DNA from: Prorocentrum cordatum
Lineage: Eukaryota
Reading direction: 5' to 3'
NCBI GenBank assembly: GCA_963575745.1
Contig: CAUYUJ010000092.1
Location: 496,001-560,000, forward strand
DNA length: 64,000 nucleotides
The notes beneath the pieces were generated by a model, which made no database searches, was not told the origin of the DNA, and was given only the letters and a program-made list of their open reading frames with translations. This document shows, in pieces, positions 31,401 through 52,400 of this stretch (within the stretch, counting starts at the first letter, position 1; every line of letters begins with the position of its first letter). The position numbers and the translations under genes are program-made.

Positions 31401-34400
31401 AGGCTGTCGGTGCCGCAGCCGTCGGAGCGGCAGTCGGTGCCGCCGTCGGCGCAGCCGTGGGCGTGGCTGCCGGGGCCGCAGCTGTCGGGGCGCCAATCGG
31501 TGCCGCCCTCGCCGCCGCTGGCGGCGCAACGGCCGGTGCGGCTGTTGGCCCCGGCGGCGCCGCCGTCGGTGATGCCATCGGCGCGGCCGTCCCTGCTCTC
31601 GGTGATGCCATCGGCGCAACCGTCGGTGCCACGGTTGGCGCGGCTGGCGCCGTCGGCGCCGACGGCGCCGCGGTAGGCGCCGCTGTAGGTGCCATTGCAG
31701 CCGCTGCCCGCCCGCCGTCGCCTCCCGATGTCGGGTCTTGGCGCGCATCGGGCCGCTTTTGAGCCACCCCCGCACGCCTCCTCCTTCGGGTCCGCCGCCG
31801 ATGGGCCCGAAAAGGACGTGGTGGGTGCCCCTCGGCCGATCCAATCACAACGCAATTTATGGAGCCTGCTGTGGAAACCGGTCAGGCCCTCGAAGTTGGA
31901 CTGCTGGAGCACGCTCCCGAATACCGGCGTGCCGCCAAGCTCAGGCGCGCTCCGGGATGCGAGCGCGCTGGTGGGCGACAGCGTGCCTGTCGGCACCCAC
32001 GTGCTGTCGAGCACCCGCGTGCCCGTGATAGAGGGCACGGCCCCGCACCTCGCCAGGGTGCGCGCGCGATCCTCCATGTGGTCCGGAGGTATGCGACCAG
32101 TAAGGTCCTCAGCCACCGCCAGCTCCGCCGCTGGGACGTCGCCCCTAAGGCTCGTGCCCCCGCGGCTAAGCCTCGCCTGCATGACCAACGCCGGCTGGGC
32201 GGTACGGGCAGCCAGGCATCTGAACCGAGAAACGTCTGCCTCATTGTGCGTGCCCTGGTGCGCGACCACCCCCGCGGTCGCGATGTCGGCGCCGGCGGGG
32301 CCGGAGGCGCCGTCGCTGGCGCTGGGACCGGCGGCGGCGCCGGCGTAGGCGCGGGCACCAGTGCCAGCGCGGGTGCTGTTGGCGGTGTGGGCGCTGGTCC
32401 CAATGTAGACGGTCATGCCAATGTCGGCGTCGGCGCTGGTCGCTGCGCGGGTCCCGGCGTCGGCGCATGCGCCCGCGTCAGCGACGGCGCCGGCGCCGGC
32501 GTCGTCGCTGGCGTCGTTGTCGGCATAGGCGGTGACGTTGGCGTCGACGTCGGCGCCGGCGTCGGCGGTGGCGGAGGCGGAGTCGCCCTCGCGGCAGTCC
32601 TCGCAGCTCGGCAGGCGTGCTTGGATGGCCGACAGAGTTGTTGTAGCTTGTAGTACATATAGTTAACATCATACATACTAATATGTCACATAACATGTAG
32701 CTAACAGAGACTTAACTACACACATATATACACTTATTAGCCAACTTAATAAGTCGAATAAGTCTAGGTGTTTGTTCGGATGTTTGTTTTTTTTAGGGCG
32801 CCAGTTTTTTTGGTTGGCGTCGTCTGCTGGTTGGACCTGCGGTTTGCCTGCGTTGTGCGTGTTTTCTGGGCGCGCTTGCTTGATGATCGTTGAGCGTTTG
32901 TCAGGTTACGCCAAACAAACTCCTCCTCCATATGTTCCTGCTCCTCCTCCTCCTCCTCCTCCTCCTCCTCCTCCTCCCTCTTCGGCGGATTACCGCCTTC
33001 TTGATCCTCCTCCTCATCCTTCTTCGGCGGATTACCGCCTTCCTCCTCATCATCCCTCTTCGGCGGATTACCGCCTTCTCGATCCTCCTCATCCCTCTTA
33101 CCGCCTTCTCGATCCTCCTCCTCGTCCCTCTTCGGCGGGTTACCGCCTTCCTCCTCCTCCTCCTCCTCCCTCTTCGGCGGATTACCGCCTTCTTGATCCT
33201 CCTCCTCATCCTTCTTCGGCGGATTACCGCCTTCCTCCTCATCATCCCTCTTCGGCGGATTACCGCCTTCTCGATCCTCCTCATCCCTCTTACCGCCTTC
33301 TCGATCCTCCTCCTCGTCCCTCTTCGGCGGGTTACCGCCTCCTCCTCCTCCTCCTCCTCCTCCTCCCTCTTCGGCGGATTACCGCCTTCTTGATCCTCCT
33401 CCTCATCCCTCTTCGGCGGATCACCGCCTTCCTTATCTTTGCATGCTGCGGCGGATCAACCGCTTTCTTTCCTCCTGATCCGCATGCTCTCATTCTGCGG
33501 ATCAGCCGCATTTCCCCTCCCCACCCCTTCCGCGGATCAACCGCGCGCCCCCCATCCTTCGATCTTGCGGATCAGCCGCGTTCTCGGGCGGCTCTACGCC
33601 ATCTTCTGTCGGCGGGTCACTCGCCTCCTCCCTCTTCCCCCCCCATCCGCAGCCTTTTCCGCCTTTCATCGCAGCCTTTTATCGCAGCCCCTTTTGGCTC
33701 GGGCTGCCGCGGGGCGGCGGCGCGTCTCCTGCACGAGAATGGCGCTCCAGCAGGAGCTCCTTCAGCGCGCCGAGGGGGTGGGCCCCTTACTGCGCGCTGC
33801 GAGGGGCCAGGGCGAAGCCGCGTGGAAGCAGGCGTCGGGTGCACAGGCTGCTCGGCTGGTCGAGCTCGTCGGATTGGTGCGCCCGCAAGGCCAGTTGCTC
33901 ATTCGTCTCGCGGGTTTGGCGCAGCAAGACGGCTTCGCGCCTGCCGACGCACAGCTGTTGCAGAACGCCTTGGCCACGGCAGCCTCGAGCAGCGGCGGGG
34001 CGTGGAAGTCGCAGGACTTCGAGCATTTCCCGTATTTCTTGAGTGGTGAAGTGTGGGCCGTGCTCAGCGACCCCCATGGGGACGTCTTGCACAAGGCTCG
34101 GTCTGTTCTGTCGTTTCTCTCGTCGAAGCTGGGCCTCAAGAACCCGTCAGAAGGCACCCTCGCGCACGTGACGGCCCTCGTGACGATCTGCGTAGATGGG
34201 GCCCCAGCGGCCCGCAGCATGAGCCCCCACTTCTTGAAAGACACCTTTGACCACATCAAGACGATGTGGAAGGGCATGGTCAAGGCAGAGCCCTTGGAGA
34301 AGATGGCCGCGCTCCCAGCTGACCCCGACGCGTTCCGAGCTGCGTTCCCCGCCACGTGGGCCTCTGCGTACGGCGGCGGTGGTCCTGCGAGCATCGGAGT

Positions 34401-37400
34401 GTTTTTCGTCGATGTCTCCGTGGTGGCTAAATCGTTCAAGTGGCGCGAGAGGCAGCGCGCAGGGTCCGCGTCGTCGGCGCCACTTTTGCAGGCTCTGCAG
34501 AATATGATGGGTCAGACGCTGCAGCAGCCTCAGCAAGAGAGGCTCGCGAACGGTGCGGTGTTGACGTTCGCAGGGAAGCAGCCGCGCAGCCTCGCTGGCG
34601 TGCAAGCGGCTGCGACGTCGGCCGCAGGGCAGCTCGCGGTGACGGACCTCCCGCAGCAACAGCAGCAGCAGCAGTTGCAGCAGCAGCAGCAAGACAACTA
34701 CAACCTGCAATTGCAGGCCAAGCAGCTCCAGGAACAGCTGCAACAGCAGCAGCAGCAGCAGCAGCATCAGCCGCCGCAGCCTCAGCCCAGTCAGTTCGCC
34801 CTCGAGGACGCCCACTCGGCGGGTGCCTCTGCAGGAGGGGCCCCGCAGGCGAAGAAAGCGAAGAAGGTGGACTCTGTGGAAGCAGCGGCCATGCAGGTAC
34901 ACGCTGCCATGCAGCAGGAGAAGGAGACCAAGGCCAAAGCGAAGGCCAAGGCGAAACCCGCTGCCAAGACATGCGTGCTGAAGAAACCAGCGTCGGCACC
35001 TGTTGGCAAGGCGGCGGTGGTGACCAAAATCAGCGTGGAGAACACGCGCAGCCAGTGCGTCGCGCACTACGGGAGGGGCCCTGGCTCGACCAAGGTGTTC
35101 AAATGGGGCCCGAACACAGGCTACACGAAGGAGACGTCCGAGAAGGCCGCCAAGCAGTGGATCGAGAATCGGCTGCGCGTCGGCTGAGGGGGTGACGGCT
35201 ACGCGTAGCTGTCGGCACGACGCGTGCCATATTCAGTGCAGCCATGCCGACGGATGGCCGTCAGTATGAGCACTTTGCCATGACGTGGGTAGTGCTACGG
35301 ATGGCATCGGCTTTTGGTTTCTTCGCCTGGCGCGCGTTGCGCTCGTGATGAAGCTCGTTCTTCTGTGAACTCGTTGCACCTCTATGCGCGCCACTGCTTT
35401 GAAAGAAAAGGCGTTGAAAAAAGTGCGGGTCAACCGCTTTCAGCGGATCATCCGCTACTTACCACGTTGTGCCAGGTCGGGGCAGGGAGGTCTGAGCAGG
35501 AATATGGAGGGATGGCATGACTAGGAAGGGATGAGACCGAGCAGAAGTTTGCCAGTGAAAAGGGAACCGCCGCTCTGGTCCAGAACCGCCCCCGCTCTGA
35601 ATCGAAGCCACAGGGGCAGAACGGTGGCGGTTCTAGGCCAGAACGGTAGCGGTTCTGGACCAGAACGGGCAAAAATGGAGGTTCATGCGCGTTCGATGCC
35701 GTAGCCGTTTGCGCTCGCAGGGGCGCGCGCGGGCGCGCGCGGCGGGCTCGGCGCGCAGGGCGCCATGGCGGCGCCGAAGAGGTCCGCCTTCGAGGACCTC
35801 CAGAGCTTCTTCGAAGAGGCCGACGGTGCGTTCGATCAGATGGACGCCGAGAGGTCGCACGTGATCGGCTGCCTCAGGAAGGTGCTCGAGGACTCTGGCC
35901 ACGTGGAGGCTGCGGACGTCCGCGACACCCCGCTGGAGGAGCCTGCAGCTGCTGCTTCGAGCTCTGCTGCGTCGGCGACTCTTGAGGTGGAGGTCGATCG
36001 CCCCGTTCGCCCTCGAGAGCAGGTCGTCGACGTCGACGCTCTGGAGCGCTCGGTCGACAACGTCCTGCGTGAAGGCGACGCGAACTCCGCGGGCGACGCG
36101 CCCATGCCCGACGGCGCGGCGGAACGCGTCCAGCAGCTCATGCTGCGGGATCCAGAGTTCGCGCGGATCGCCTTGCTCATGGTGATGAGTCCGCTCTCCG
36201 TGGACTGGAACGACCCCGCCGTCATCAACGTCGAGAAGACGCTGATCTTGGAGTTCCAGTGCCACAAGAAATTCAGGCAGCGGGGTCCCCCTGGCCCATT
36301 GCAGGGAGGGCCCACGGAGTGGAGGGGCCAAGCCTGGAGGCAGAACAGCGGTCGGTGGGGCTCCCGCGGCGGCCGCAGCGTGCGGCTTGCCGAGTTCCAG
36401 GCGAAGTTCGGCAAGGAGCGAGGCACGGAGGCTTTCCTCGAGGACGAGGACCGACGCCGCAGCTTGCGGCAAGACAGCTTCGTGGCGAAGTTCGGCATGG
36501 AGCGAGGCACCCAGGCCTTCCAGGAGGACGAGGCCGCTCGCGCGAGCAAGTCCAAGGCGGTCGCGCGCATGATGGCCGCCCCACCGAAGGCCCACCAGCC
36601 GAGGATGGTGCTGCCGACGGTCGACCCTCCGACCAGCAAGGCGCGCCCGACGCCCAAGATGGTCGCGCCCGTGCCGATCGCGCGGCCCGCGGCCAAGGGC
36701 AAGAGCAAGGAGGCGGTCTCCAGCAAGGGCACTGCTGGCAAGCACGGCAAGGGCTCCGACGAGGACACGGACAAGGGCTCCGACAAGGGCGTTCGCAAGG
36801 GCACGGCCGTCAAGAGCAAGGGCGGCCACAAGGGCGCGGACAAGGGCAAGGACGCGCACGTGGTCAAGAACGTCCTCCAGCCCACGTCCAAGCGCCCCGC
36901 GCCTCGGACGCCGTCGCCGCATCGCAGGCCTAAGCGGCGGGCGACCAATTCGCAGGACGCCAGCGGGCGCGGGCCGTTGCACTTCCTGTGGCGCGCGCTA
37001 TTGTTCTTGGAAAAAAATACGCGTACTTCCTCGGCGGCTCATCCGCCATGGCGGTTTATCCGCCTGTGTGTGCACGAGTGTCGCTGCGCGCGCGTCACGC
37101 GTGTGCTTCCTCGGCGGCTCACCCGCCATGGCGGTTTACCCGCCTGTGTGTTCGCCACGCACATGCTCTCGCACCGTTTTTTCTGTATAGGCGTTTTGGC
37201 TCGAACGCGAAGCGCGCGTGGGCCGCCCGTCGCCGCCAGCTTCCGCATCCATGTCGGACGCTGCGTCCTCCTCCGCTGATGTCCAGCCTGCTGCCGCGCA
37301 CGCTGACGACGGAAGCCCGACGTGGATCATGTGGGGTGGGAAGTGCCCCTTTGGCTCGCAGTGCAGCAAGCGCTCGGCGACCATCAAGTCGTGCCACTCG

Positions 37401-40400
37401 TACGAGGATGCCGTGGAGTCGATCATCCATCACTTGGTGACGTCGCCCTACCACGAGCTCGAGCGCTCCGAGGCTGAATCGGCCGTCGACTTCAACTTGA
37501 TCGAGTCCTGGGAGGTCGACAAGAAGAAGTGGGCCGAGGAGCAGGACAGGTGGCAGAAGAAGCAGCGCAAGAGCTTGCCGTGGCAGCCCACCGCGGAGCC
37601 CGCCATCAGCGCGCCGCCGACGGGTGCTGGCACGGGTCGCATCACGCTCTCGGAGATGCAGGTGAGGGCCTGCGTCGACTCGCTGAAGCGTGCCAAGGTC
37701 TCGGCGGAGAGCGCGGCCAACCTCTGCGCCAAAGCGGCTCGGGCGTTCAACGAGGAGGTCACGTGCATCCAGCAGTGCGTCGAGGTGATCGAGTCGTACG
37801 TCCAGCCGACGCGCGTGCTCCCCCTGCGCTAGGCTGCTGGCGGAGCTCAGGTTTTGGCCACGCGCGTCGGCGCCTCGCTTAGCACGCCCACGTCGGGTGC
37901 TCATTCGCGGGCTCGGACGCCGAATCTTTGCTGGGAACACCAGCACACCTTCCTCGTCGCTGCGCTCATCATCTTGGATCATTGTCACGAGCGGTTCACT
38001 CGCTGATCGGCGGATCATCCGCCAAGGGAAGGGCATCGGCGGGTCGACCGCCATACAGCGGATCATTCGCTACTCAACGATGTGACCGATAACAACCGAT
38101 AACGACCGATAGCGTTTCGATAACGATGTTATCGGATCGACCGATAACAACCGATAACGCCGATAACGCTATGTTATCGGCAACGAAACCACATCCGATA
38201 ACATCAAAATAACATCCGATAACGTCCGATAACGTCCGATAACGTCCGATAACGGTTATCGGAGCCGAAATTGCATCCGATAACGTTGTTATCGGGTGTT
38301 ATCGGTGATCGTTAACGGATGTTATCGCATGTTAGCGCGACATCCGATAACTGTTATCGGTATGTTATCGGTTGTTATCGGATGGTATCGGATGTTATCG
38401 GTATGTTATCGGGCTTATCGGATGTCATCGGCCGTCATCGTCACATCATGATGGCCCCGAGAGGGTTCGCTTCCGCAAACGCATAGCCATTTTTTTGAAA
38501 GCCTAATGTACGCCCATGTTGTTGATGCAACGGGTTGGCGCTATGGCGCGCACGCAAGCATGACCATTGGTCTTTGGGCGCGTCCCCATGGGAGCTTGAT
38601 AGAGGCGCGGCAGCAGCAAAGCTTGGGAAGCTGTTGATGGCACGCGGTGTCGCGACGCGCAACTGAAACCATTTTGGCGGCAGGGCACCAACGCGTGACG
38701 CTCTCATTACCCAGAGAAGCACGACGGTGTGACCCAGAAGTAACGACGGGCCGCTGCTGCTGAAAATCGCCTCCTGAGGCATTGATCGGGGCATGTACGG
38801 GAGATGCACGACGGCCGCCAAACAGGAATCACAACGGGTCATGTTTGCAACAACCCCCTCCTGAAGCAATGACTGGGTTACGTATGCACGTGAGGTACAC
38901 GGCGGCACCCACCCAGTAAAGACGACAAGTCTTTTTTGCTACAATACCCCCTGAGGCACTGATTGGGGCATGTAAGTAAGGCGCACGACGACCGCAATCC
39001 AGGAAAGACGACGAGCCGATTTTGCTACAATCTCCAACTGCGGCACTGAAGGCGGTGTAAACCAGATACATGACGGGCGCGACCCAAGAATCGCGACGGA
39101 CCGTTTTGCTACAACCCCCTTCTGAAGCGCTGATTGGGGCTCTCCCAGACGGCACTGGAGGGCCACCGCAATGCCCGAGGGCTCAGGAAGCTCTGGGAGG
39201 GGTCGACGAAGGCGCCAGAAGGGCCTCCAACAACACGTCGTCGCAACAGCACGGCCTCGCGGCGCCGCCACGGCACGGCGTCGTAACGGGGCGGCTCCTC
39301 TAGGCCCCCTCCTCTTTCTCCTCGCCATCCTCCCTCTTATCTCCCCTCTTGATGCTATGTCCCCCCTCTCTGTACCTGTCGCAACGCTGCACGCGTCGCT
39401 GCCCAACGGGATTGCCCGGGGGGGGGGGGGCGGGAAGTGGATCCACAAACGCGCAACAGGTGATCCACAAACCGCGCCAGGCAATTTTCATACCCCCGGA
39501 GGACCCCCCGCTCGCGCGATCCACAAACTGCGCTTGCACGTGCACGCGCGTCGCCTCCAAAACTTGATCCTTAAACTTGATCCTTAAAATTATATATTGA
39601 TTTTAAACAGAAAATCTGTGGATCAGTTTTCGGGGGGAGATTTTGGCGATTACGTAGCACCCCAAAATTGCGGATAGGAGTGAGGGCGCGGGCGGGCGGG
39701 CGCAGCGCCTGCGACCGCCCCGCAACCAACCCGCCTCGCCACCCGCCCGCGACCCATCGGCCAATGTGACATGAGAGAAAATGCCCTTCCCAGGCCGTAT
39801 CGACCCTCTTGGACCCTTCCCAGGGCCCTCGGAAGTGCCCAAGAGAGCCCGTGACGGCTCCAAAAAACTGCCGAGAGCGGTATCGCGAAGCCTCTCTCGC
39901 GTGACCGATCTCGGAGCCCTCTTGGGAGCCTGTCGGGGCCCTCTTGGAACCTCTTTGAGCCCTCTCGGCGCCCTCTTGGACCTTTCCCAGGGCCCTCGGA
40001 AGGGCCCAACAAAGCCCCAAGACAGCTCCAGGAGGCTCCCAAAAGCGGTCACGCGAAGCCTCTCTCACGTGACCGATCTTTGGGCCCTCTTGAGGCCCGC
40101 TTGGGGCCCTCATTGGAGCCCTCTTGGAGCCTCTTGGAACCCTCTCGGGGCCCTCTGGACCCTTCCTGGGGCCCTCGGGAGGGTCCAAGAGGGCCCCAAG
40201 ACAGCCCCGGGAGGCACCCCAAGAGCGGTTACGCGAAACCTCTCTCGCGTGACCGATCTCGGGGCCCTCTTAGGAGCCTCTTAAATCATCTTCGACTTTC
40301 TGGGAGCTCGCTTTGGGCCTTTTTGGACTCTTCCCAAGGCACTCGGAGGGGCCCAGCAGGGCCCCAAGACGGCTCCAGGAGGCTCCCAAGACCGGTCACG

Positions 40401-43400
40401 CGAAACCTCTCTCGCGCGACCTACCTTGGGGCCCTCTTGGGGCCCTCTTGGAGCTGTCTCGGAGCCATCTTGGGCGCTTCCGAGGGCCCTCAGACGGCTC
40501 CCAGAGAGCCCCAAGACAGCTCCAAGGGAGCCCCGGGGGCAATCACTCAGGGGACCGAACGACTCACCCGCGCCGCGACCCACCCGCAACCCACCCGCGA
40601 CCCACCCGCGACCCATCGGCGCCGCGAGCCACCCGCGACCCACCCGCGCCGCGACCCGGCCGAGTTGCCGATGCGCAAACTCAAAACACATGCGCGCTGT
40701 TTTCAGGGGCGCGTTTGTGGCGTTGGTTATGGCTCAGGGAGCGGGTAGACGTGAGTCATCGCCCTCCTCCGCGGTTTCAGATATTTTGCCGCCCGCCATC
40801 TTGGACATCCACCTTCGCCCGCCCTGAAGCTCAAACCGAGCGTGCGAATGAAATCGAAACAAATCCTCCTTTTCCTCTGGCACACTGAGCGTGGTACTCC
40901 GTTTATCTTACCCCTCCCTCGTCTCGATTGAAACCGTTCTGCTATAACGAAGCGCGACTCGATAGGATCCGTTCTTCTCTTCTCTCCGCGCCTTCGCGTA
41001 CCTCCAGGGGAAAACATTTGCACAGATCGTGTTCTGGACCAGTTGTTTTTTTCTCTCCACGTACCGCATCCTCCTCTCCTCCATCCGCAGCCGTTGTGCT
41101 TGCAGGGCAACGCGCGCGGGCTCCTTGCTTCTGCGCCCCCGTGTCCCATCTCGCCTCTCGCGGTTCCGATGTCGCTGCAGTTGGCCTTGATGCCACCGCC
41201 TGCCGCGGCGCCCGTGCCGACGGCTAAGGCCAAGGGCAAGGCCAAAGCCAAGGCCAAGTCGAAGAGCAAGACGGCCACCGTCGAGATGGCGAATGACGCA
41301 ACAGTTGCTTGGTGGACAAAGTTCAAGTCGCCTGGGTCGGTTGTCTCTGGCTCGGAGGCTGCCGATAGCCCGACGGCGACGACGCTGGCGCTCGCAGCTC
41401 CTGAGGTGGCCGACTTGGGAGACTTCGAGGATGCGCCCGAAGGCGACGATGTTGCCTCGTCGGGGGCCGCTGCCTCGTCCGAACCGCTTGCCGTCGAAGA
41501 CGCCGCCTGCTCGCCGACTCCGACTCAGGAGGTGGCAGACAAGGCTTCTCCCCCGGTGCTCAAGCCGACTCCCACTCCAGGCGAGGTCTTCGTCTGGCAA
41601 GGTCCTGAGGTCAAGCACGAGCCGTCGAACCCAACGTGCTACAGGTGCAAGCAAGAGGTCGATGTCTTGAGGGCACCACTGATTGGGAAAGGCCAGGGCT
41701 CGTGGAAGTGCGAAAAGTGCAACACGCGCGGAACGCAGTTGTCCCGCTTGTTCGGATCGTGGCCACCTGCCAGCTTCAGGAGGCTTGACTCCTCAGTGCA
41801 AGCGAAGTTCTGGCAAGATGCAAAGGAGAAGGCTGGTAAGGATCAGCTCGAGGAGCTGTTCGTCCAGACTCTCACGACGACTCGGATCGAGCAGGAGGTT
41901 GCCCAAGTGGGCGGGGAGTATCTGCCGTTGTCAGTTTACGCCCAGCGTGGGTTCGATGTTACACGCATCGAGAAGGAGTGCAAGGACACCGAGGAACACA
42001 AGATCCTCGGAACTTGCTACCGCGTGGACATCAGGGGTGGCTATTCGAAAACGATCGAGCAGCTCGCCCGCGCCGAGGTGCAGGAGCTGAAAGCGAAGGC
42101 GAAGGCGCCGCCTCCGACGCAGCCGACGCAGCCAGCTCCAGGCAAGAGCGAATCAGATGATTCGGAAAGCGGCTCGAACAAGACGAGCAGCAAGAAGGGG
42201 AATAAGTCGAAGAAACAGAAGAAATCCAAGAAGCAGTCCAAGAAATCCAAGAAGGCCGACAAGAAGGACAAGCGCGACAGGAAGGACAAGAAGTCCAAGA
42301 AGCGCGCAGCGTCCTCGACCTCGGATTCGGATTCGGACTCGAAGTCTGAGAATGACAAGGGCCTGCAGGCGAAACAGAGGAAGCTCGAGCAAGAGAAAGC
42401 CAAACAGGCCAAGAAGAACGTTGCCCTGGCGACCCGCGTCTTGTGCAAGATCGAGAGGCCCCGGATTTCTCTTGATCGCGATCTCAAGGATCCGATGTCG
42501 AAGCACGTGCCGAAGTACACCATCGATCCAGCCAAGAAAAAGCTCAAGGAGCTTGAGAAGCTTTACTCTGAGTTCAGGAAGGTCCACGACGAGCGTGGCA
42601 TGGGGGGTGAGGTGACGACAACGGTGGCTGAAGTGGATGACCTTGTGAAGACTTCGATCGAAGCTGCCGCGCTCCTTTCCAAGCTGCTGAGCACTGCGAA
42701 GAGCAACGTTCCGAGCGGGGACGACGTGTAGGCTCTCCCCGTCTGCGTCTGCCGTGACCGCCCGTCTTCTCACTGCCCGTCTGAGTCTCTGCGGAGACGA
42801 CGTGTTAGGTCGGCGCTGCAGTCGCGCGGGAGGCACCGTGCATGCTTCCAGCCAGCTTTGGCTTCAGGTCCGCCCTGACGACGAGGGGCTGACATGACCC
42901 AGCGCTCGATTAGCCCTGCAGTTTGCCATGACGTGGGTAGTGCCACGGATGGCGCCCGACCGCGCGAGCCCCGACTGCACTTGCTAGTCTCAGGGGACAC
43001 GCCGCGATCACGGGATAGCGCTCAGTTTGCAGTAGCGCTCGGGGTTAACTCACACCGACTTCAATGGGAAGTTGCTCGTGGAAAACCCATCGATAAAAAA
43101 AGCGGTTCAACCGCTCGGCGGATCATCCGCCAATCATTTTCTTCCTCTTCTCAAGCTCAGCCGCGGCTCAACCGCTGAAAAATCCATCAATCAAAAAAAA
43201 GCGGATCAACCGCTCGGCGGATCATCCGCCAATCATTTTCTTCCTCTTCTCAAGCTCAGCAGCGGTTCAATCGCTGAGCAGGTTATCCGCTAGTCGCTCA
43301 TTCCTTTCGTCGGCCATTTCTTCCTCTCATCCACCGTACTTCCATTCCTCCTCCTCCTCCTCTTCCTCGGAGTCACAAGGACTTATTGGCCTCGGTGCAA

Positions 43401-46400
43401 GGGGGGGTGGAACGACCCAGACGACGTCGACGAGGGGTCGCGTTCCACCCCCCGAGGGTTAAAACTGAGGCCAAACTGGGGCCTCAGTTTTAACCCTCAA
43501 GCGGGCCAGGTCACCGTAGGCCATGGGCGTATACGCTGTCCTTTCATCTGATCGCTCCTGATCGCTCCTTCCTTGCGTTCCCCGTGCTTCCATTCCACGC
43601 CTCCTCCCGCTCCTCTCCCTCCTCCTCCTCTCCCTCCTCCTTCGCCTCGCCCCCTTTCACACATCCCTTCCCCTCACTCCCCCATCATCCTTCTCCTGCT
43701 GCTTGTGCTGATGTAGGTTCAGCATCTCCGCCCCGTCGTTCTTTCCGCAGCCATTTCAGCATCGGGCGATCGGCGCCCTGTCCCGCCTCCCGCCCCTCCA
43801 CCGCTGCCTCCCCGCTCGCCTCTGTCGGCCATGGAGCCGCTCGCGAAACGGCAGAGGATCCTCGATATGTTGAGCAGGCGGAACTTCAGCGAGAGCGACG
43901 TCGTGGCGGCGCTCGCCGCGCTGGGAAGAGATGAAGCGGCGTCTCGGCGAGATGTGCGGGAGTGCGTGGATACGTTCACTGCGGACGTTCTCGTTCAGCT
44001 TACGCTGCAAAAGCAGGGTGGCGACGCCTTTGACTGGACCATCGCCAAGTATCAACTTCTCCTCCCGAGGTGTCTTGCCCAGTGCGCGGGTTTCAGAGAG
44101 GAGTTCGAGAATGCAGTGGCGAGGTCACCGAATAGTTTCGACAGGCCGTGGCGCCTGGCGCTGTACATAGATGACGTGGTGCCTGGCGATGTTTTGAGGT
44201 TGAACAACAAGCGAAAGACCACGTGCTGGTATATAGGCATACTTGAGATGGGACGCTATCTGCGATGCGAAGAGGCATGGCTGCCCGTTGGCGTGCTGCG
44301 CGCCACCATCGCTAAAGATCTGCAGGGAGGCTTCCCAGCTGCGGCCAAGGCGCTCCTGCGTTCGCTCCTGCTCGGCTCCGACAGCGTCGCCGTGGCAGGC
44401 GTCAGCGTGCCGTGCGGTGGCCAATCGCGGATTATGCATTTCAAGTTTCAGCGGTTGATCGGTGACGAAGTTGCGACGAAAGCGTTCTTCGACACGAAAG
44501 GCTTTGGCGGCATTAGGTGTTGTTCCATATCGTGCAAGAACGTAGTGAAGCTGAACAAAGATGGCGTGACTGATTCGCTCGCCGATCATCAGACTGGCAC
44601 GTACCTGGTCGACGTTTCGTGCTCTGACCCCTCGCAGTTCGACCCGATGTCAGACGAGGACGTTTGGCGCACGCACGATATTCTGGATGCCGTGCGCAGG
44701 AATGGGGGTGCGTTGAAAAAGGCACAGACAACGATGGGATTTTCTTTGAACGAACACGGCGTTCTGGCCGACAAGGATCTTCGCCCACACGTGTTTCCAC
44801 ATTCCTGCCTGCTGCGCGATTGCATGCACGTGTACCTGGCAGGCGGCATCGTGAATATCGAGATTGGCTTGCTTTTTAATGGTGTTGCTGAGTGTACTCC
44901 TGGTTTTTCCTTCCGTTTGCTGAAGACGTTCGCCGAGGCCGACTGGCATTGGAACCCAGGAGGGCTGACCAGGAGCGAGTTCGCTGACATATTCAACGGG
45001 TCTCGGGAGATGGCGTGGAAATCAAGCGGTGTCTTTCGCGCGGGGGCATCTGAACTCTTGTCTGCATTCCCATTCATCAGATACTTTGTTGTTGAACACG
45101 TTCCCGCGCACAAGGTGCAGTTGGAGCGCCAGAGCTACCTCCGTCTCTGTGACGTTCTGGACAGCATCAACGAGGCAAAGCACTATTCCACGCCCGTTGC
45201 TATGAAAGATATCATGCGGCGTGCAGTTGGCCGTTTCCTTGACGCGCATAAGGCCGCGTACCGCCTCGACTCCATCGTCCCAAAACACCATTATCAGTGG
45301 CACGCTGTGTCAGACCAAGAGGACGACATATTTCTTGATTGCTTTGTGCACGAAAGGAAGAACAAGATCGTGAAGCAATCAATGACCCACATCGCGAACA
45401 CGGCGGCATTCGAGAAAAGCTCGGTCCAGCAGCTTCTCGTCAAGGTGTTCCCAGCGATGGACAAAGTCAGGATGACCGAATTGTGCGAGCCCGTGGCGGT
45501 GAGCCAGCCGTTGTCCGACAAGTTTGGCCAGGTTTGCGTCGTGTCCAAACAGATGAGGTGGCGGGGCTTGCTGCTCAGAGTTGGCAGCGTGGTTTTCATT
45601 CAGAACGCGGCGGTCGAGGTTCAAGCGTGCTTGTCCGCTGGTGGCGTTCTAGCGCTTATCGTGGGAAAGCTTGCGCTGGTGCGTCGCGAGCCGCTCGGTG
45701 GGTACTCTATCTGGACTAGAACGGGACAGTCGGAGCTCCTGGTGCCCGAGGGCGCGCGCAAGGCGACTGGATGGTTCCTCAAGAGCGACAACGCGCTGGT
45801 GGTGATTCACTGAGCTCGGAGAAAATCATCTTGAAAAAAAAAGCGGATCAGCCGCTGTAGCGGATTACCCGCTCATCCGCCCCTCCTCATCATCGTGCTC
45901 ACCACCGTCATCATCATCACCGTCGCTCCTCCACGTCATTTTTTGTCAGTTGGCCCAGGGAAAAAAAGCAACGGCCGCTAGCGGATAAGCCGCCACATGC
46001 GTCGCGTCCCCCCCTCCTTCCACGTCTTCCTCCGCCGCCTGCCTCTCCGCTCGGCTCTCCTCCTTCATTTTCTGTGCCGCGAGTTTTTTTTTCTGCGTCA
46101 GCCCGTTCAGGTGGCCCTTCTTAGGTTAGTTAACTTAGTTGACTTATTTGAAACACTTATTTTTTGTATATGTTGCATGTTATGTCGGATACATATCCCT
46201 AGGTATGTTCTATCCGCAGATGTTATGGACATGTCAACACCTATAAGGTACTATATTGATAATGCAAACATGTCCAGACATATAACTAGGGATCGTGTTG
46301 CTTATAACAAGGGATATCGCAGGTTATAAATCGTACAAGCTACAACAACTCTGTCGGCCATCCAAGTGGAGCGGCCCACAACGGCGGCGGCGAGGGCAAC

Positions 46401-49400
46401 TGTGACGCCCCGGCTGGGCAAGCCCCGCCGGCAGCGTGCGGCATGCGCCCGAGCTGGCTCCCACGGCCTCGCTCCGTCTGCGATGGCGCGGTGCTGACGC
46501 TGGCTCTCGCGGCGGCGTCGGCGCCGGCGCCGGCGTTGGCGGTGGCGTTGGGTTCGGCGTAGGCGGTGGCGCTGGCAGCGCCTGCATCGGCATCGAAGGC
46601 GTCGGCGTCGGCGCTGGCGTCAGTGCTGGCGCTGATGTTGGCGTGGGCCGTGATGCTGGTGCCGACCTCAACGCGGGCGTCCGTGCTGGTGCCGGGTCCC
46701 CCGTCGGAGAACCCGGCGCCAGGCCTGGGCCAATCCCCTCGGCCAATCCAATCACAACACCACAGTCCATGGAGCCTGCCGTTGAGCCCAGCCACACCCT
46801 TGAAGTTGGACTGGGGCACGCTCTCGGATACCAGAGTGCTGCAAGGCCCAAGCGCGCTTTGGGATGCGGGCGCACTGATGGGCGTCAGCGTGCCTGTCGG
46901 ATCCCACGTACTGTCGAGCGCCCGCGTGCCCTCGACAGGGGGCCCGGCCCCGCGCCTCACCAGGGCGTGCGCGCAATCCTCCACGTGATCCGAAGGTATG
47001 CGAACGGTAAGGTTTCCAGCCACCGCCAACCCCGCCGCTGGGACGTCGCCCCTAAGGCTCGTACCCACGCGGCTAAGCCCCGCCGGCATGACCAACGCCG
47101 GCTGGGCGGCACGGGCAGCCACGAAGCTGAACCGCGTAGCGCCCGCCTCATGGTGCGTGCCTCGGTGTGCGACTACGCCCGCGGTCGCGTCGTCGGCACC
47201 GAAGGCGCCGTCGCTGGCGCCGGGACCGGCGGCGGCGCCGGCGTAGGCGCGGGCCCCAGTGCCAGCGCGGGCGTCGTCGGCGGTGCGGGCAGCGGTTCCA
47301 ATGTAGACGGTCATGCCGATGTCGGCGTCGGTGCTGGTTTCTGCGCTGGTCTCGGCGTCGGCGTAGGCGCCGTTGGCGTCGACGTCGGCGGTGGCGGAGG
47401 CGGAGTCGCCCTCGCGGCAGTCCTCGCAGCTTGGCGGGCGCGGAGCGGCCTGCAGCGGCGGCGGCTCGGCGTCGGACCAGGCGGCGGCTCCGGCATAGGC
47501 GTCGGCGTTGGCGCCGTCGCCGGCGTTGATGTCGGCGAAGGCGGGGACGTTGGCGTCGGCGCTCGCGTCGTAGGATGCGGCCTTGGTGCCAGCCTGAGCC
47601 TCGGCATCGGTGTCGGCGTCGGCGCCGGCTTCGCCGCTGGCGCTGATGTTGGCGCAGGCGGTGACGACGGGGTCGACGACGGCGGCGGCGTCGGTGCCGG
47701 GAACGGGGCCCCTGTCGGGGCCCGCGGCACCGAGCCTGGTCCAGTCCCAGTCCCGAACCTCGTCGGCCTCCGCGTCCGTCTTGACCCCGTCCGTCCCCGC
47801 AGCCCTCCTCGAGCCCTCGACGTCGGCGTTGGCGTCGGCGGTGGGGGAGGCGGAGTCGCGCTTGAGGTGGTCCTCGTGGCTCGGCAAGCGCGGAGCGGCC
47901 TGCCGCGGCGGCGGGGAGGGCAGCCGCGACGCTCCAGCTGGGCAAGCCCCGCCAGCAACGTACGGCACGCGCCTGAACTGGCCTCCACGGCCTCGCTCAG
48001 GCGGGGAGCAAACGCGCCCCAACCGCGCGGCGCCGGCTCGCCGGCGCGTGGCCGCGCTCGCGAAGGGCGCGAGACGCGTGCGGCGCGCTGAGCGCGACCG
48101 AAAGCAGAACTGGCAGCGCGCGCGCGCGAGAGCGCCCGCGCGAGCTGCACGGAGCCTGCGGAGCCAAGCCCGTGCGTGCGGAGGCGCGGAGCAGGTGGCG
48201 CAGTCGCCGACGTTAGGGCCAGCGTCGGCGCCGGCGGCAGTGTGGGCGCCGGTGCCCGTGCAGACGTCCCTGTCGGCGTCGGCGTTGGTCCCAGCGCCTG
48301 CGCTGGTATCGGTGCCGACGCCGGCTCTCGCAGCGGCGTCGGCGCTTGCGCCGGCGTCGGCGCTGGCGTTGGTTTCGGCGTAGGCGGTAACGCCGGCAGC
48401 GCCTGCATCGGTAGCGGAGGCGTCGGCGCTAGCGTCGGTGCTGGCGCTGATGTTGGCGTAGGCCGTGATGCTGGTGCCGACCTCAGCGCAGGCGTTGGTG
48501 CTAGTGCTAGGTCCCACGTCAGGGAACCCGGCGCCATGCTTGGACCAACCCATAGCCCAGACCTCGCCGGCCACTGAGCTGGCGTGGGCGATAGCGTCGA
48601 TGTCGGCGCCTGCGCCGGCAGCCGAGGAGGCGGCGGTGCCCGCGCGGCCCTCGGAGCCGATGGCGTTGATGCCGGCATCGGCGGTGATGTTGGGAGCGTT
48701 GGCGCTGGCGCCCGTGCTGGCGGCTGCGGAGGCGGCAACGTCCTCATCGGTGTCGGAGCCGGAGGTGCAGTCGTCGGCATCCAGCCTGGCGGCGGCCCCG
48801 GCGTAGGCGTCGGCCCTGGCGCCGTCGCTGTCGTTGATGCCGGCGCAGGCGGGGACGTCGGGGGCGGCGGCGCCGGTGTCGTAGGTGGGCCCGGTGCCAG
48901 CCTGAGCGTCGGCATCGATGTCGGCGTCGGCGCTGGCGTCGGCGTTGGCGCTGATGTTGGCGCCGGCGGTGACGACGGTGCCGACGACGGCGGCGGCGTC
49001 GGTGCGGGGGACGGGGCCCTCGTCGGGGCCCGCGGCGCCGAGCCTGGTCCAGTCCATGTCCCAAACCTCGTCGGCCTCCACGTCCGTCTCGGCCTCGGCC
49101 GTCTCCGCGGCCCTCCACGTGCCCGCGGTGATGCTCACGATCCCCTGCCCCCCGATGATGGTGCAGGCGGCGACATCGGTGACGAAATCGGCGGCGTCGT
49201 TGGTGCCGGAAACGGGGCCCCTGTCGGTGCCCGCGGTGCCGTGCGTGGTCCAATCCATGTCCCAAACCTCGTCGGCCTCCACGTCCGTCTCGGCCTCGGA
49301 TCCGATCTCCATGAGGCCCCGCGCCTGCTCCGCGGCGGGGTGGCGGCGAGCCCCCACTAACAGTTGCTGCCCCACCTCCAGGGCCTCGTGGGCCTCGCGG

Positions 49401-52400
49401 GGGAACTCATCGCGTTCCAACCGCGCGACCTCCCAGGTCTCGAGCACGTCCGTCAACCGGTACTGCTTGGCCTCCGCTGGCGCCCCTCCCGCCGCCACGG
49501 CGGCTGCCCGCTCCGAGCGGCGCCTCGCGAGCGCGTCTCTGGCGCCCTCAAGGGCCAGCGCGCGCCGGCGCAGCCGTGCTTCCAGCTCGGGGCCGGCCCC
49601 GCGCCAGAGATCCGGAGCCGGGTCTGTGCCTGCGCGTGCATTGGCATCGATGCTGGTGAACGCGATGGCGTTGGTGCTGGCGCGCTGGCCGCGATCGATG
49701 TTGGCCTCGGCGCTGGTGTACCCGCGGGCGGCGGCGCCGGCATCAACGCAGGCGCCGGCGCTGGCGGTTGCGCCGGCACGGGTGCCAGCGCAGTCGCCGT
49801 CGTTGGGGTGGGCCTCATCACTGGCATAGGCACTGTGGGCAGCGCTGCCATAGGCGCTGGCGCCGGGGAGGACGCATGAGGCGCTGCCGTCAGCCCGCTC
49901 GCCCTCGCCCGCGCGTCCCCGCCCAGGCATGGCCAGGCCGCCGTCCTCGTTCAGCCCGGCTGGACCTCCCATCGCTGCCTCGCGGATGACGATCCTGTGA
50001 ACGATGGTGGGGCCAGACTCGTCGTACTCGCCCCTCGTAGCCCATTCCTGCTGAGAAGCGCTCTGCGTGAGGGGGATGGTCCCGCCGATCCACATGGGGT
50101 ACTTACGCTCGGGCGGTGCCGCGATCTTGATCCTCATCGTCGAGGGCGCCAGGGCGGATAGCTCCTTGTTCATGCGCTCCCCGATCCCGGCGAACAGGGT
50201 GATGCCGCCAGACGGAAGCGTGTTGGCGTAGAGGTCCCTGCGGATGTCGACGTCGCACTTCATGATGGACTGGAAGGGGGTGTTGTGGTTGCCGCTGGCT
50301 TCCCTGCCGGTGAAGCTGGACTGGAATAGCACCTCAGGGCAGCGGGCACGCTCGCTGCCCACGGTGATGATGCTGCCGCCCGGAAGCTCGTACGCCTTCT
50401 CCTCGTCCCCAACCTCGGTGGCAGCCTGCATCTCAGTGTTGCAGACGAGGGCAACGTAGCAGAGCTTCTCCGTAACGTCCGCGGCCTTCATCAGGTACCC
50501 CGTGAGGTCGCGGCCGGCCAGGTCAAGGCGCAAGATGGCGTACGGCAAGGCATAACCCTCGTAAATTGGCACCCCATGCGACACATCGGCACCCGAGTCC
50601 GTCGCGATGCAAGTGGCAGGGCCGGAAGCGTGCAACGAGAGCACTGCCGGGATGGCCTCGTACATCGCGTAGAACGTGTGGTGCCAAATCTTCTCCCTAT
50701 CGTCGCAACTCGTCACGATGCCGTGCTCGATTGGGTACTTCAGCGTCAGCACGCCGCGCTTGCTCTGCGCCCCGTCGCCCACGTAGCCGTCGTTCTGGCC
50801 CACCCCGACCATGATGGCCGATCCGAACGCGCCGGCGGAACCGACCGCGCCGCCCCGCCACGGTCCCCCGTCGGTTGGGGGTTGGCAGACAACCTCGGTC
50901 GGGGTGCGGGCGTCCTCCTGGAGTGCGGTCCTCCTCATCCTCCTCCGCCTCCTCGTCCTCGCTCTCGGGCGGACCTCCTCCCTCGCCGCTCTCTCGCCAT
51001 CTGGCGGGCGGAAAGGGGGTGGGATTGACCGCCGCGCGGCCCCCCGTCCCCGCTGGCCCAGCAGCCGGCGCCTTCGCTGCCTGCGCCTCTTCATCCTTCT
51101 CTCCTCCTACGCCGCCTACTCCTCCTCCTCCTCTGCCGTCGACCCCCTCGGTCGTCGCGAACACGCCAGGCTCGCGCGAGGGCGGCGGGACCGCCTCCTC
51201 GGCCTCATCATCCCCGACGGCGCGTAGCTCCGCGACGAAATCCGCGGTGCTGACTCCTGCCTCGCCCCCCGCCCCTGCGGCAGCCTCGAGCTCGTCGATG
51301 CGGGCCCGGAGGTTCTCGGCGCCTGTGGCCCCCAGCTCGAAGCTCGTCGTCAGGTGGTCGACGATCGCCATCAAGGTGGCGACGTGCGCGCGGCTCCTCG
51401 CCAAGGTCTCCTCGGCACATAATCTGCGCGCCCGCTCGTACTCGCACGCCTGGCTCATCCCTTGGACGAGCCTCTCGGCTATCATCTGCCGTGAAACGCG
51501 CTCTCTCCACCGTCGAGTCGCCTCCTCTTCGTAGGCCTGGCGCCACTCCTCAGCACCCACGGCGGCCCGTGACCGCTCTGCCTCCAGGGCGGTGCACCGC
51601 GACCGGGCCACGGCCAGCTTCTCCCCGGCGTCGAGCGCCTCGGTCGCCCAAAGCTGCAGGTTGGTGCCCTTCTCGGCCAGCGCAGCCTCCATGCGGCGAT
51701 GTCGGCACTCGGCTCCCAACACGCAGCAGGCCAACCAACCAGCGGCCAGCCAGCCGAGGTGAAGCAAGTCGAGGCCCAGCCCGCTGCTCCCAGCGCCCCC
51801 CACGGAGCTGGCCGCCGCGCGGCTTCGCTCAGCGACGGGGAAAACCGGATCCACCGGAGACGGGGCCTCGCCAGCGCCCGAACCGTTGCTCTGGGCTGCC
51901 GGCTGGCCGGACGGTGTCAATGAAGGTCGCTCCGAAGGATCCGGCGCGGCGGGGCTACCCGTAGGTTCGCCACCGCCCCTGCGCCCAGGCCTCTGCCTCA
52001 GGGGGGTCGTCGAAGTCGTCGTAGTCGTGGCCGTCGTAGTCCTGGTCACAGCCCGCCGTGCGGACGCCCCCGTCGTCGTAGTCGTAGTCGTCGTGGCACC
52101 AGCCGGGCGCGCCCCAGGGGGCTTGGCCGGCGGCCCTCGCCCCTTCCCTGCCGCGGGCGCAGGCTTGGCGGGCGCGCCGCGCCCCTCGCCATGCCCACCA
52201 CCGCCCGCTCCGGGCGCAGGCTTGGCGGGCGCGCCGCGCCCCTCGCCATGCCCACCACCGCCCGCTCCGGGCGCAGGCTTGGCGGGCGCGCCGCGCCCCT
52301 GGCCATGCCCACCACCGCCCGCTCCGGGCGCAGGCTTGGCGGGCGCGCCGCGCCCCTTGCCATGCCCACCACCGCCCGCCGTCTGAAGATTCGGCCCGGG

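What the first reader, a model, noticed from the sequence alone, without database searches (positions are those of the whole stretch)
33646..43765. Every gene in the transposon is preceded by a genomic relic of the dinoflagellate spliced leader
Established: the dinoSL is DCCGTAGCCATTTTGGCTCAAG, and relic SLs mark genes recycled through mRNA. Seen, about 35-85 nt upstream of each ATG and mostly after a pyrimidine tract: ORF A tcgcagccccttttggctcggg (33682-33703, with two more partial cgcagcctttt copies at 33646 and 33669); ORF B ccgtagccgtttgcgctcgcag (35699-35720); ORF C gtataggcgttttggctcgaa (37185-37205); ORF D tccgcagccgttgtgcttgcag (41084-41105); transposase tccgcagccatttcagcatcggg (43744-43765). 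Inference: the element was assembled from retroposed trans-spliced mRNAs, or it keeps SL-like sequence as trans-splice acceptors so a co-oriented, possibly polycistronic cassette is resolved into separate mRNAs.
Basis: partly seen in the sequence, partly recalled or inferred. Interest (0 to 1): 0.82.

Follow-up and report, generated by a model that had tools for sequence, protein, structure and literature searches.

The report
Spliced-leader relics in a five-gene transposon
Each of the five genes of a 13.7-kb dinoflagellate DNA transposon starts just after a worn copy of the host's mRNA leader, a known mark of genes once copied back from RNA, which here seems to be kept as a splice signal because a distant relative of the transposon has the same gene order and similar marks.

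Summary
Observation confirmed. All five strings lie where stated and match the dinoflagellate spliced leader (SL) better than shuffles or other ATG-upstream windows (Fisher p about 1e-7), including the part after the internal AG; singly they are weak. They sit in a 13,747-bp element with 33-bp inverted ends, a TG duplication and a RAG1/Transib-fold transposase. A metagenome element (L003, 30-42% protein identity, near-saturated silent sites) has the same A-B-C-D-transposase order and weaker relics (Fisher 4e-4), so these are the element's own genes, not captured host cargo. The internal YAG is kept in 10 of 10 relics. An oriented GCGG-N5-CCGC palindrome fills every intergenic stretch; in L003 it lies 47-55 nt before all five AGs, in the window only before two. 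Best reading: relics of written-back mRNA, kept as trans-splice acceptors, one 5' module per gene. No RNA data could test splicing or polycistrony. SL relics are known since 2008, and this scan noted the same pattern on eight other pieces of this genome. New variant of a known kind; interest 0.5.

The parts
32618..32619 (.). Left copy of the apparent 2-bp target duplication (TG)
   Evidence: paralogous host units have one dinucleotide (CG) at this place
32620..32652 (+). Left terminal inverted repeat, 33 bp, 100% match to the right one; similar to the ends of L003
32985..33624 (+). Cluster of GCGG-N5-CCGC palindromes before ORF A (exact at 33451, 33497, 33532, 33567; degenerate at 33612 and in the repeats from 32985)
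33646..33681 (+). Two partial copies of the 5' half of the relic (each with its own YAG); a local duplication, not the full-then-truncated order of repeated recycling
   Evidence: order expected for recycling from PMC3229502
33682..33703 (+). SL relic A; internal AG ends at 33687
33739..35187 (+). ORF A, 482 aa, no family match above cut-off; 12 P. cordatum gene-model accessions; homolog in L003
35417..35455 (+). A-run and two GCGG-N5-CCGC palindromes between A and B
35699..35720 (+). SL relic B; internal AG ends at 35704; no pyrimidine tract
35765..36991 (+). ORF B, 408 aa up to the stop seen in run X1; in this copy it reads on to 37279; short homology to L003 gene B (47% over 49 aa, E 0.003)
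37034..37143 (+). Four GCGG-N5-CCGC palindromes before C; the last starts 59 nt before the relic AG
37185..37205 (+). SL relic C; internal AG ends at 37190
37251..37832 (+). ORF C, 193 aa; Cys/His pattern shared with L003 gene C, by eye a possible zinc finger; weak zf-RVT hit below cut-off
38010..38051 (+). Two GCGG-N5-CCGC palindromes after C
38077..38441 (.). Foldback array with ATAAC/GTTAT core; L003 has a foldback with the same core between C and D
38740..40620 (.). Short tandem and high-copy repeats between C and D; absent from L003, probably later insertions
41084..41105 (+). SL relic D; internal AG ends at 41090; weakest of the five
41169..42731 (+). ORF D, 520 aa; four conserved cysteines (157, 160, 181, 184); distant homologs carry RING-like Pfam hits; no clear fold match
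43095..43229 (+). A-runs and five GCGG-N5-CCGC palindromes between D and the transposase
43744..43765 (+). SL relic before the transposase; internal AG ends at 43750
43831..45813 (+). Transposase, 660 aa, uninterrupted; D114, D212, E508, C231, H333, H487, H491 conserved; RAG1/Transib fold, weak BAH-like C-terminal domain
45834..45993 (+). A-run and three GCGG-N5-CCGC palindromes after the last gene
46334..46366 (-). Right terminal inverted repeat
46367..46368 (.). Right copy of the apparent TG target duplication

Best explanation
This is a young copy of a five-gene cut-and-paste transposon of the RAG1/Transib/EnSpm (CMCT) group in a Prorocentrum cordatum-type genome. Each gene has its own 5' module: a cluster of oriented GCGG-N5-CCGC palindromes, a spacer, and an SL relic. 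Steps: (1) shown: relics, module, conserved gene order; (2) inferred from known dinoflagellate biology: SL-capped mRNAs of the element's own genes were reverse-transcribed by a host retroelement and written back into element DNA, leaving the SL in front of each gene; (3) inferred from the decay pattern: selection keeps the relic's internal YAG as the trans-splice acceptor, so mature mRNAs should begin with a full SL followed by relic position 7 onward; (4) inferred, weakest: the palindrome cluster is the element-specific promoter or protein-binding signal for each gene, so the genes are transcribed mostly as separate units.
For: Relics significant in the window and beyond the AG. Independent element L003 has the same order A-B-C-D-T on one strand between inverted ends and relics scoring 8, 6, 7, 4, 12 (Fisher 4e-4), although fourfold sites are at or near saturation (identity 0.27-0.46 against 0.25-0.30 expected). 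A5 and G6 kept in 10 of 10, position 4 always C or T, while A9 is kept in 3 of 10 (rough p 0.009). No ATG between any relic AG and the start codon. Among 41 distinct upstream regions of related transposases, 8 score 8 or more against 0.58 in shuffles (maximum 4 in 300), and L010 has a nearly perfect SL with 247 nt of DNA in front of it; relic-bearing rows are scattered on a quick tree. Relics go with absence of intron-like gaps: 9 of 30 against 0 of 11 (one-sided p 0.04). Palindrome: 20 in 6877 intergenic nt, 0 in 6804 coding nt, 0.34 expected; loop oriented in 42 of 47; 47-55 nt before the AG in 5 of 5 L003 genes (permutation P 2.9e-4). Known: new SL is joined at the relic's internal AG (PMC3229502).
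Against: No transcript evidence at all. L003 relics are individually weak: only A and T reach p<0.05, D is at p 0.44, and I chose D's start codon by eye after the first-ATG choice scored -1. The fixed spacing is a post hoc observation and is not kept for 3 of 5 window genes (261, 3051, 533 nt). L001 keeps the spacing but lacks the internal AG, and L002 has only a doubtful relic. Most relatives have no detectable relic (32 of 41 score under 7), and their hosts are unknown. The intron link falls to p 0.06 at a stricter cut-off, rows are not independent, and the L002 gap looks like a foldback insertion. Ten of 11 gene models of ORF A splice out residues 288-366, so A may not be intronless. Palindromes also follow the last gene, where no acceptor is needed.
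Confidence: 0.45

Rival explanations
1. Polycistronic cassette: one precursor runs through all five genes and is cut into mRNAs by trans-splicing at each relic; the A-run plus hairpin cluster is an RNA signal that couples 3' end formation to the next acceptor, possibly showing the branch adenosine in its YUNAY-like loop 40-48 nt before the AG.
For: All genes on one strand in the window and L003; gaps of 255-780 nt in L003; loop strand-oriented in 42 of 47; A-runs directly before clusters at 35417, 43095, 43193, 45834; fixed spacing in L003. Polycistronic processing is assumed for P. cordatum in PMC10666404. Likeness to nematode operon and trypanosome signals is recalled, not checked.
Against: The largest cluster lies before the first gene. 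The C-D gap in the window is 3.3 kb of repeats with a long foldback. Three right-end motifs of L002 point the other way. Reviews report polycistronic expression as rare or not validated in Lingulodinium (PMC11453091, PMC5029490). Same-strand order is the norm for host genes too.
Confidence: 0.2
2. Neutral footprints: the genes were retroposed once (as captured cargo or otherwise) and the relics are decaying without function, as for a share of host genes.
For: 22-23% of Symbiodiniaceae genes have upstream relics (PMC5585692); relics here are 60-75% decayed copies; a relic also precedes an unrelated gene at 8841-8823.
Against: Five of five at a 23% rate is 6e-4, though criteria differ. Silent sites between the window and L003 are near saturation while relics and the YAG persist. 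Gene order is conserved and no named host parent appeared for A or D.
Confidence: 0.15
3. Hard-wired leader or core promoter: the palindrome sets a transcription start about 30 nt downstream, at the first base of the relic, so the RNA starts with its own SL-like end, or the relic's TTT(G) serves as the core promoter.
For: Spacer from motif end to relic start is 29-37 nt with unrelated sequence in L003 and 32 nt in L001; T10 and T11 kept in 9 and 10 of 10; TTT(T/G) promoter proposal in PMC5585692; an SL in a dinoflagellate RNA virus genome is discussed as mimicry in PMC9651163.
Against: Pyrimidine tracts lie upstream of 4 of 5 window relics and the YAG is the best-kept part, which fits an acceptor. 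The Sm-site part AUUUUGG is broken in all ten relics. Spacing lost for three window genes.
Confidence: 0.12
4. Chance or convergence: ordinary acceptors in GC-rich DNA followed by T-rich sequence were read as SL.
For: Single relics are weak; 19 ungapped hits of 14/21 or better in the window; D p 0.04.
Against: Joint p about 1e-7 with two backgrounds, 1.5e-6 for the part after the AG, replicate in L003 and near-perfect SL before related transposases.
Confidence: 0.08

Closest known systems
Relic DinoSL of recycled mRNAs (Slamovits and Keeling 2008 as described in PMC3229502, PMC6050394; Song et al. PMC5585692)
   Same: Decayed 22-nt leader 50-100 nt before the start codon; internal AG as acceptor; TTT kept best after it.
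   Different: Described for host genes at about a quarter of genes. Here every gene of a mobile DNA element has one, in a gene order kept across deep divergence, behind an element-specific palindrome.
CMCT clade of DNA transposons (EnSpm/CACTA, Mirage, Chapaev, Transib, Plavaka, ESTA, Lanisha, RAG1; PMC12730594)
   Same: DDE transposase with Cys and His motifs between second D and E, RAG1/Transib fold, inverted ends, 2-bp duplication.
   Different: No Pfam family hit; four accessory genes of no known family; window ends read CT..AG rather than CA..TG if TG is the duplication; no dinoflagellate member named in that paper's main text.
VANDAL elements and VANC anti-silencing motifs (PMC5735166)
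   Same: Multi-gene DNA transposon with a short motif repeated in intergenic and terminal non-coding DNA and absent from the coding regions probed.
   Different: Different transposase superfamily; no binding protein or demethylation shown here; motif is a spaced palindrome; an analogy only.
DinoSL upstream of virus-derived genes in Symbiodiniaceae (PMC9651163)
   Same: SL found in DNA before genes of a genetic parasite (13 of 59).
   Different: Those are integrated viral mRNA copies, not genes inside an element that still moves as DNA.

Membership tests
Relic DinoSL (mRNA recycling) | SL-like sequence in DNA just upstream of the ORF, same strand, above chance | tested here: met
Relic DinoSL (mRNA recycling) | At least 9 nt exact match (criterion of PMC5585692) | tested here: inconclusive
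   met by 2 of 5 window relics and 0 of 5 in L003
Relic DinoSL (mRNA recycling) | New SL joined at the relic's internal AG in mRNA | not testable with these tools
   no RNA holder listed; AG kept in 10 of 10 is indirect
Relic DinoSL (mRNA recycling) | Intron loss relative to a parent gene | tested here: inconclusive
   ORFs uninterrupted; 0 of 11 relatives with intron-like gaps have a relic against 9 of 30; no parent identified; gene models place an intron in A
Relic DinoSL (mRNA recycling) | Poly(A) remnant at the 3' end | tested here: inconclusive
   A-runs of 6-9 after A, B, D and the transposase, none after C; T-runs are about as common
CMCT clade DNA transposon | D, D, E catalytic triad | tested here: met
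   D114 invariant, D212 and E508 in 90% or more of 122 sequences; assignment by conservation and fold
CMCT clade DNA transposon | C(2)C and H(3-4)H motifs between second D and E | tested here: met
   family consensus PCxxCKN and PKHHxxxH; the window protein has C231-x3-C235 and H487-x3-H491
CMCT clade DNA transposon | Terminal inverted repeats and 2-5 bp target duplication | tested here: met
   33-bp repeats, TG on both sides; L003 flanks show no duplication
CMCT clade DNA transposon | 5'-CA..TG-3' termini (most members) | tested here: inconclusive
   window ends CT..AG if TG is the duplication; the right end can also be read as ..GTG; L003 ends CAC..GTG
Named sub-lineage (EnSpm, Plavaka, ESTA, Lanisha, Transib) | Sequence-level assignment | tested here: inconclusive
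   0 Pfam families for 16 members; no tree with reference transposases was built
Polycistronic operon resolved by trans-splicing | One precursor spanning adjacent genes | not testable with these tools
VANDAL-type anti-silencing system | Element-encoded protein binds the repeated motif and removes silencing marks | not testable with these tools
   motif distribution only

The most novel reading that the evidence does not exclude
A DNA transposon family whose genes cycle through RNA while the element moves as DNA: SL-capped cDNAs are written back in place, gene by gene and repeatedly, and each gene starts from a standard element-specific cassette (oriented palindrome, about 30-nt spacer, SL relic used as acceptor) read by one of the element's own accessory proteins. 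It would give a compact, testable dinoflagellate promoter/acceptor unit.
Probability: 0.25. Interest if true: 0.75.

Novelty: new variant of a known kind. Interest (0 to 1): 0.5.

Why it matters
Dinoflagellate promoters and trans-splice signals are poorly defined (PMC5029490), and whether SL relics are functional is argued mainly from genome-wide counts (PMC5585692). A multi-copy element with five repeats of one 5' module, plus a distant relative in which neutral DNA has largely turned over, lets one test the acceptor and promoter ideas site by site with existing long-read RNA data. It also suggests that DNA transposon genes themselves pass through cDNA, which a cut-and-paste element does not need. 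The relic itself is an old finding, and without RNA data the functional claim stays an inference.

Tried and rejected
No genome was held, so copies and host base rates could not be counted directly. RNA test: no RNA holder listed; X2 and X3 gave only low-complexity matches; this says nothing on expression. X1 covers the element body at a depth like single flanking contigs (about 8-11) although 12 gene-model accessions of ORF A exist; contig depth is no copy number, left unexplained. Joints across the element in X1 may be paralogous host units, so they are not proof of an empty allele. No relatives in viral or prokaryotic contigs. No solved-structure match by sequence, no Pfam hit above cut-off for A-D or the transposase, no Atlas hit for A or the core of D, no clear fold match for D (only helical-bundle matches, the zinc domain barely tested). 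Repeated recycling as the source of the three copies before A: rejected, since the extra copies are 5' halves placed upstream. Head-to-tail cDNA concatemer: considered; the L003 spacers hold no A-run. A shared CA-to-CG drift in the window relics was noticed; CG is not over-represented in the element (o/e 1.06), not pursued. Other clades show their own repeated palindromes but I saw no fixed spacing to a relic, by eye. The careful tree did not finish; the quick tree was used. Eight of 49 upstream regions were dropped as near duplicates and 31 of 80 loci had no usable 120-nt upstream region.


Full report
Observation. I scored the 21-nt SL against the 120 nt before each start codon with one gapped scheme. 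Scores were 9, 11, 8, 7 and 9 for A, B, C, D and the transposase. Against dinucleotide shuffles p was 0.0057, 0.0003, 0.022, 0.041 and 0.0057 (Fisher 1.9e-7); against 1376 ATG-upstream windows the joint p was 1.3e-7. Using only SL positions 7-21 directly after a YAG, all five passed (Fisher 1.5e-6). Singly they are weak: 19 ungapped hits of 14/21 or better occur in the window, and only A and C have 9 exact bases. Four of five follow a pyrimidine tract; B does not.

The element. Self-comparison gives 33-bp perfect inverted repeats at 32620-32652 and 46334-46366; the flanks continue one unit of a host repeat, with TG on both sides where paralogous units have a single CG. Length 13,747 bp. The last ORF (660 aa) models well (pLDDT 95.6) and matches RAG1 (Foldseek E 3e-9; Z 16.2, rmsd 5.5 over 456 residues) and Transib (E 5e-4), with a weak BAH-like match at 547-650. 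D114, D212, E508 and the Cys and His motifs are conserved in 122 sequences, as described for the CMCT clade (PMC12730594, passages). The family is large: 8478 representatives at E 0.001 or better. Closest named proteins are labelled Prorocentrum cordatum; P0001 is identical at 595 of 597 aligned residues. ORF A has 12 gene-model accessions, the 11 proteins aligned being 98-100% identical, on at least ten contigs, one numbered next to a transposase model on the same contig; one of these may be this locus. So the family is young and multi-copy. ORF B in this copy reads through a codon that is a stop in run X1.

The genes are the element's own. L003, a 9058-bp metagenome contig, has inverted ends similar to the window's and homologs of all five genes in the same order on one strand (B only 47% over 49 aa, E 0.003). 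L002 has D next to the transposase. Protein identity is 30-42% and fourfold sites are at or near saturation. Searches with A and D returned no named host gene. This argues against recent capture of host retrogenes.

Relics persist in relatives. In L003 the scores are 8, 6, 7, 4 and 12 (p 0.022, 0.20, 0.058, 0.44, 0.001; Fisher 4e-4); D's start was chosen by eye. Over the ten relics, A5 and G6 are kept 10 times, position 4 is always C or T, T11 is kept 10 times, A9 three times, mean 0.76 (G3 is 10 of 10 only with a gap in C). Among 41 distinct upstream regions of related transposases, 8 score 8 or more (shuffle mean 0.58, reverse strand 2) and 4 score 11 or more (0.02, 0). L010 has a nearly perfect SL 18 nt before its ATG with 247 nt of DNA in front. 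Most relatives have none, and their hosts are unknown. Relics occur in 9 of 30 loci without intron-like gaps and 0 of 11 with them (p 0.04; 0.06 at a stricter cut-off), and they are scattered on a quick tree. Fresh and worn relics in different branches fit repeated write-back better than one old event, but this is an inference.

A second part of the module. GCGG-N5-CCGC occurs 20 times in 6877 intergenic bases of the element and never in 6804 coding bases (0.34 expected). It is in all six intergenic stretches of both the window and L003, and in L001 and L002, which form one clade with them. The loop has one orientation in 42 of 47. In L003 the last palindrome starts 47, 49, 50, 55 and 47 nt before the relic AG, across unrelated spacers (permutation P 2.9e-4, post hoc); L001 gives 50 and L002 48, but with a missing AG and a doubtful relic. 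In the window the spacing holds only for C (59) and roughly for A (40, 62, 75 from a degenerate copy); B, D and the transposase are 261, 3051 and 533 nt away. Copies also follow the last gene. Earlier notes of this scan describe oriented hairpin words in other elements of this genome; I could not check them.

Mechanism. Known: SL-capped mRNAs are reverse-transcribed and reinserted, and the next SL is joined at the old SL's internal AG (PMC3229502, passages; PMC6050394, parts 1-2 of 3). About 22-23% of Symbiodiniaceae genes carry relics, best kept 50-100 nt before the start (PMC5585692, passages). In P. cordatum 16.3% of genes are single-exon and 2,994 transcripts have SL plus relic against 84,841 with SL alone (PMC10666404 supplement, passages). 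I infer that mRNAs of the element's own genes were written back into element DNA and that the internal YAG is now the acceptor (0.45 for the full model with separate units). A polycistron resolved at the same sites is the main rival (0.2); neutral footprints (0.15), a hard-wired leader or promoter (0.12) and chance (0.08) follow. The first two share the acceptor claim, so that claim stands at about 0.65. No RNA run holding the element was listed, so none of this was tested on transcripts.

Novelty. SL relics are known since 2008 (original paper not read; known to me through the papers above). I found no paper describing relics before each gene of a dinoflagellate DNA transposon, or this family, in searches (listings only; most subscription journals and repeat databases are not covered). 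This scan has noted the same pattern on eight other pieces of the same genome; those notes are unchecked and are not counted as support, and one 14-kb block may be another copy of this family. Other papers seen as passages only: PMC7245778, PMC10666404, PMC11453091, PMC3942190, PMC9651163, PMC5029490, PMC5735166, PMC3795323.

Verdict. Real feature; new variant of a known kind; interest 0.5.

Noticed in passing
window 8841-8823, minus strand: An SL-like string ends directly at an ATG that opens a fragmented, probably intron-split gene; the downstream frame at 7545-5359 has D..D..CxxH-like motifs that look, by eye, like another transposase type.
   Followed up: no
window 38077-38441 and L003 about 4420-4785: Both elements carry a long foldback array with an ATAAC/GTTAT core between genes C and D (77% and 90% paired).
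   Followed up: partly
window 35270-35305 and 42918-42953: A 36-nt stretch, 94% identical, is shared by the 3' regions of genes A and D.
   Followed up: no
window 43454-43498: A 45-nt hairpin between the palindrome cluster and the transposase leader.
   Followed up: no
window 46340-51094, minus strand: A long frame holds a decayed actin copy (Pfam E 1.4e-56) fused to the host repeat into which the element inserted.
   Followed up: no
P0206: The N-terminal extension of this ORF A homolog reads like the translated upstream region of the window, including the palindromes and the duplicated relic start, so the 5' module of A seems conserved at 73% protein identity.
   Followed up: partly
L002 2571-2831: The gap in its transposase looks like a foldback insertion rather than an old intron.
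   Followed up: no
L006, L007, L009, L024, L028, L066, L029, L056 upstream regions: Other clades have their own repeated spaced palindromes (GCGAG, GGCT or GGCCC arms) before the transposase.
   Followed up: partly
window 1648, 1807, 1966: The same palindrome type occurs once per unit in a 159-bp tandem repeat outside the element.
   Followed up: no
transposase residues 547-650: Weak structural likeness to BAH domains of DNMT1, ZMET2 and ORC1 (Z about 6, within the range of chance).
   Followed up: no
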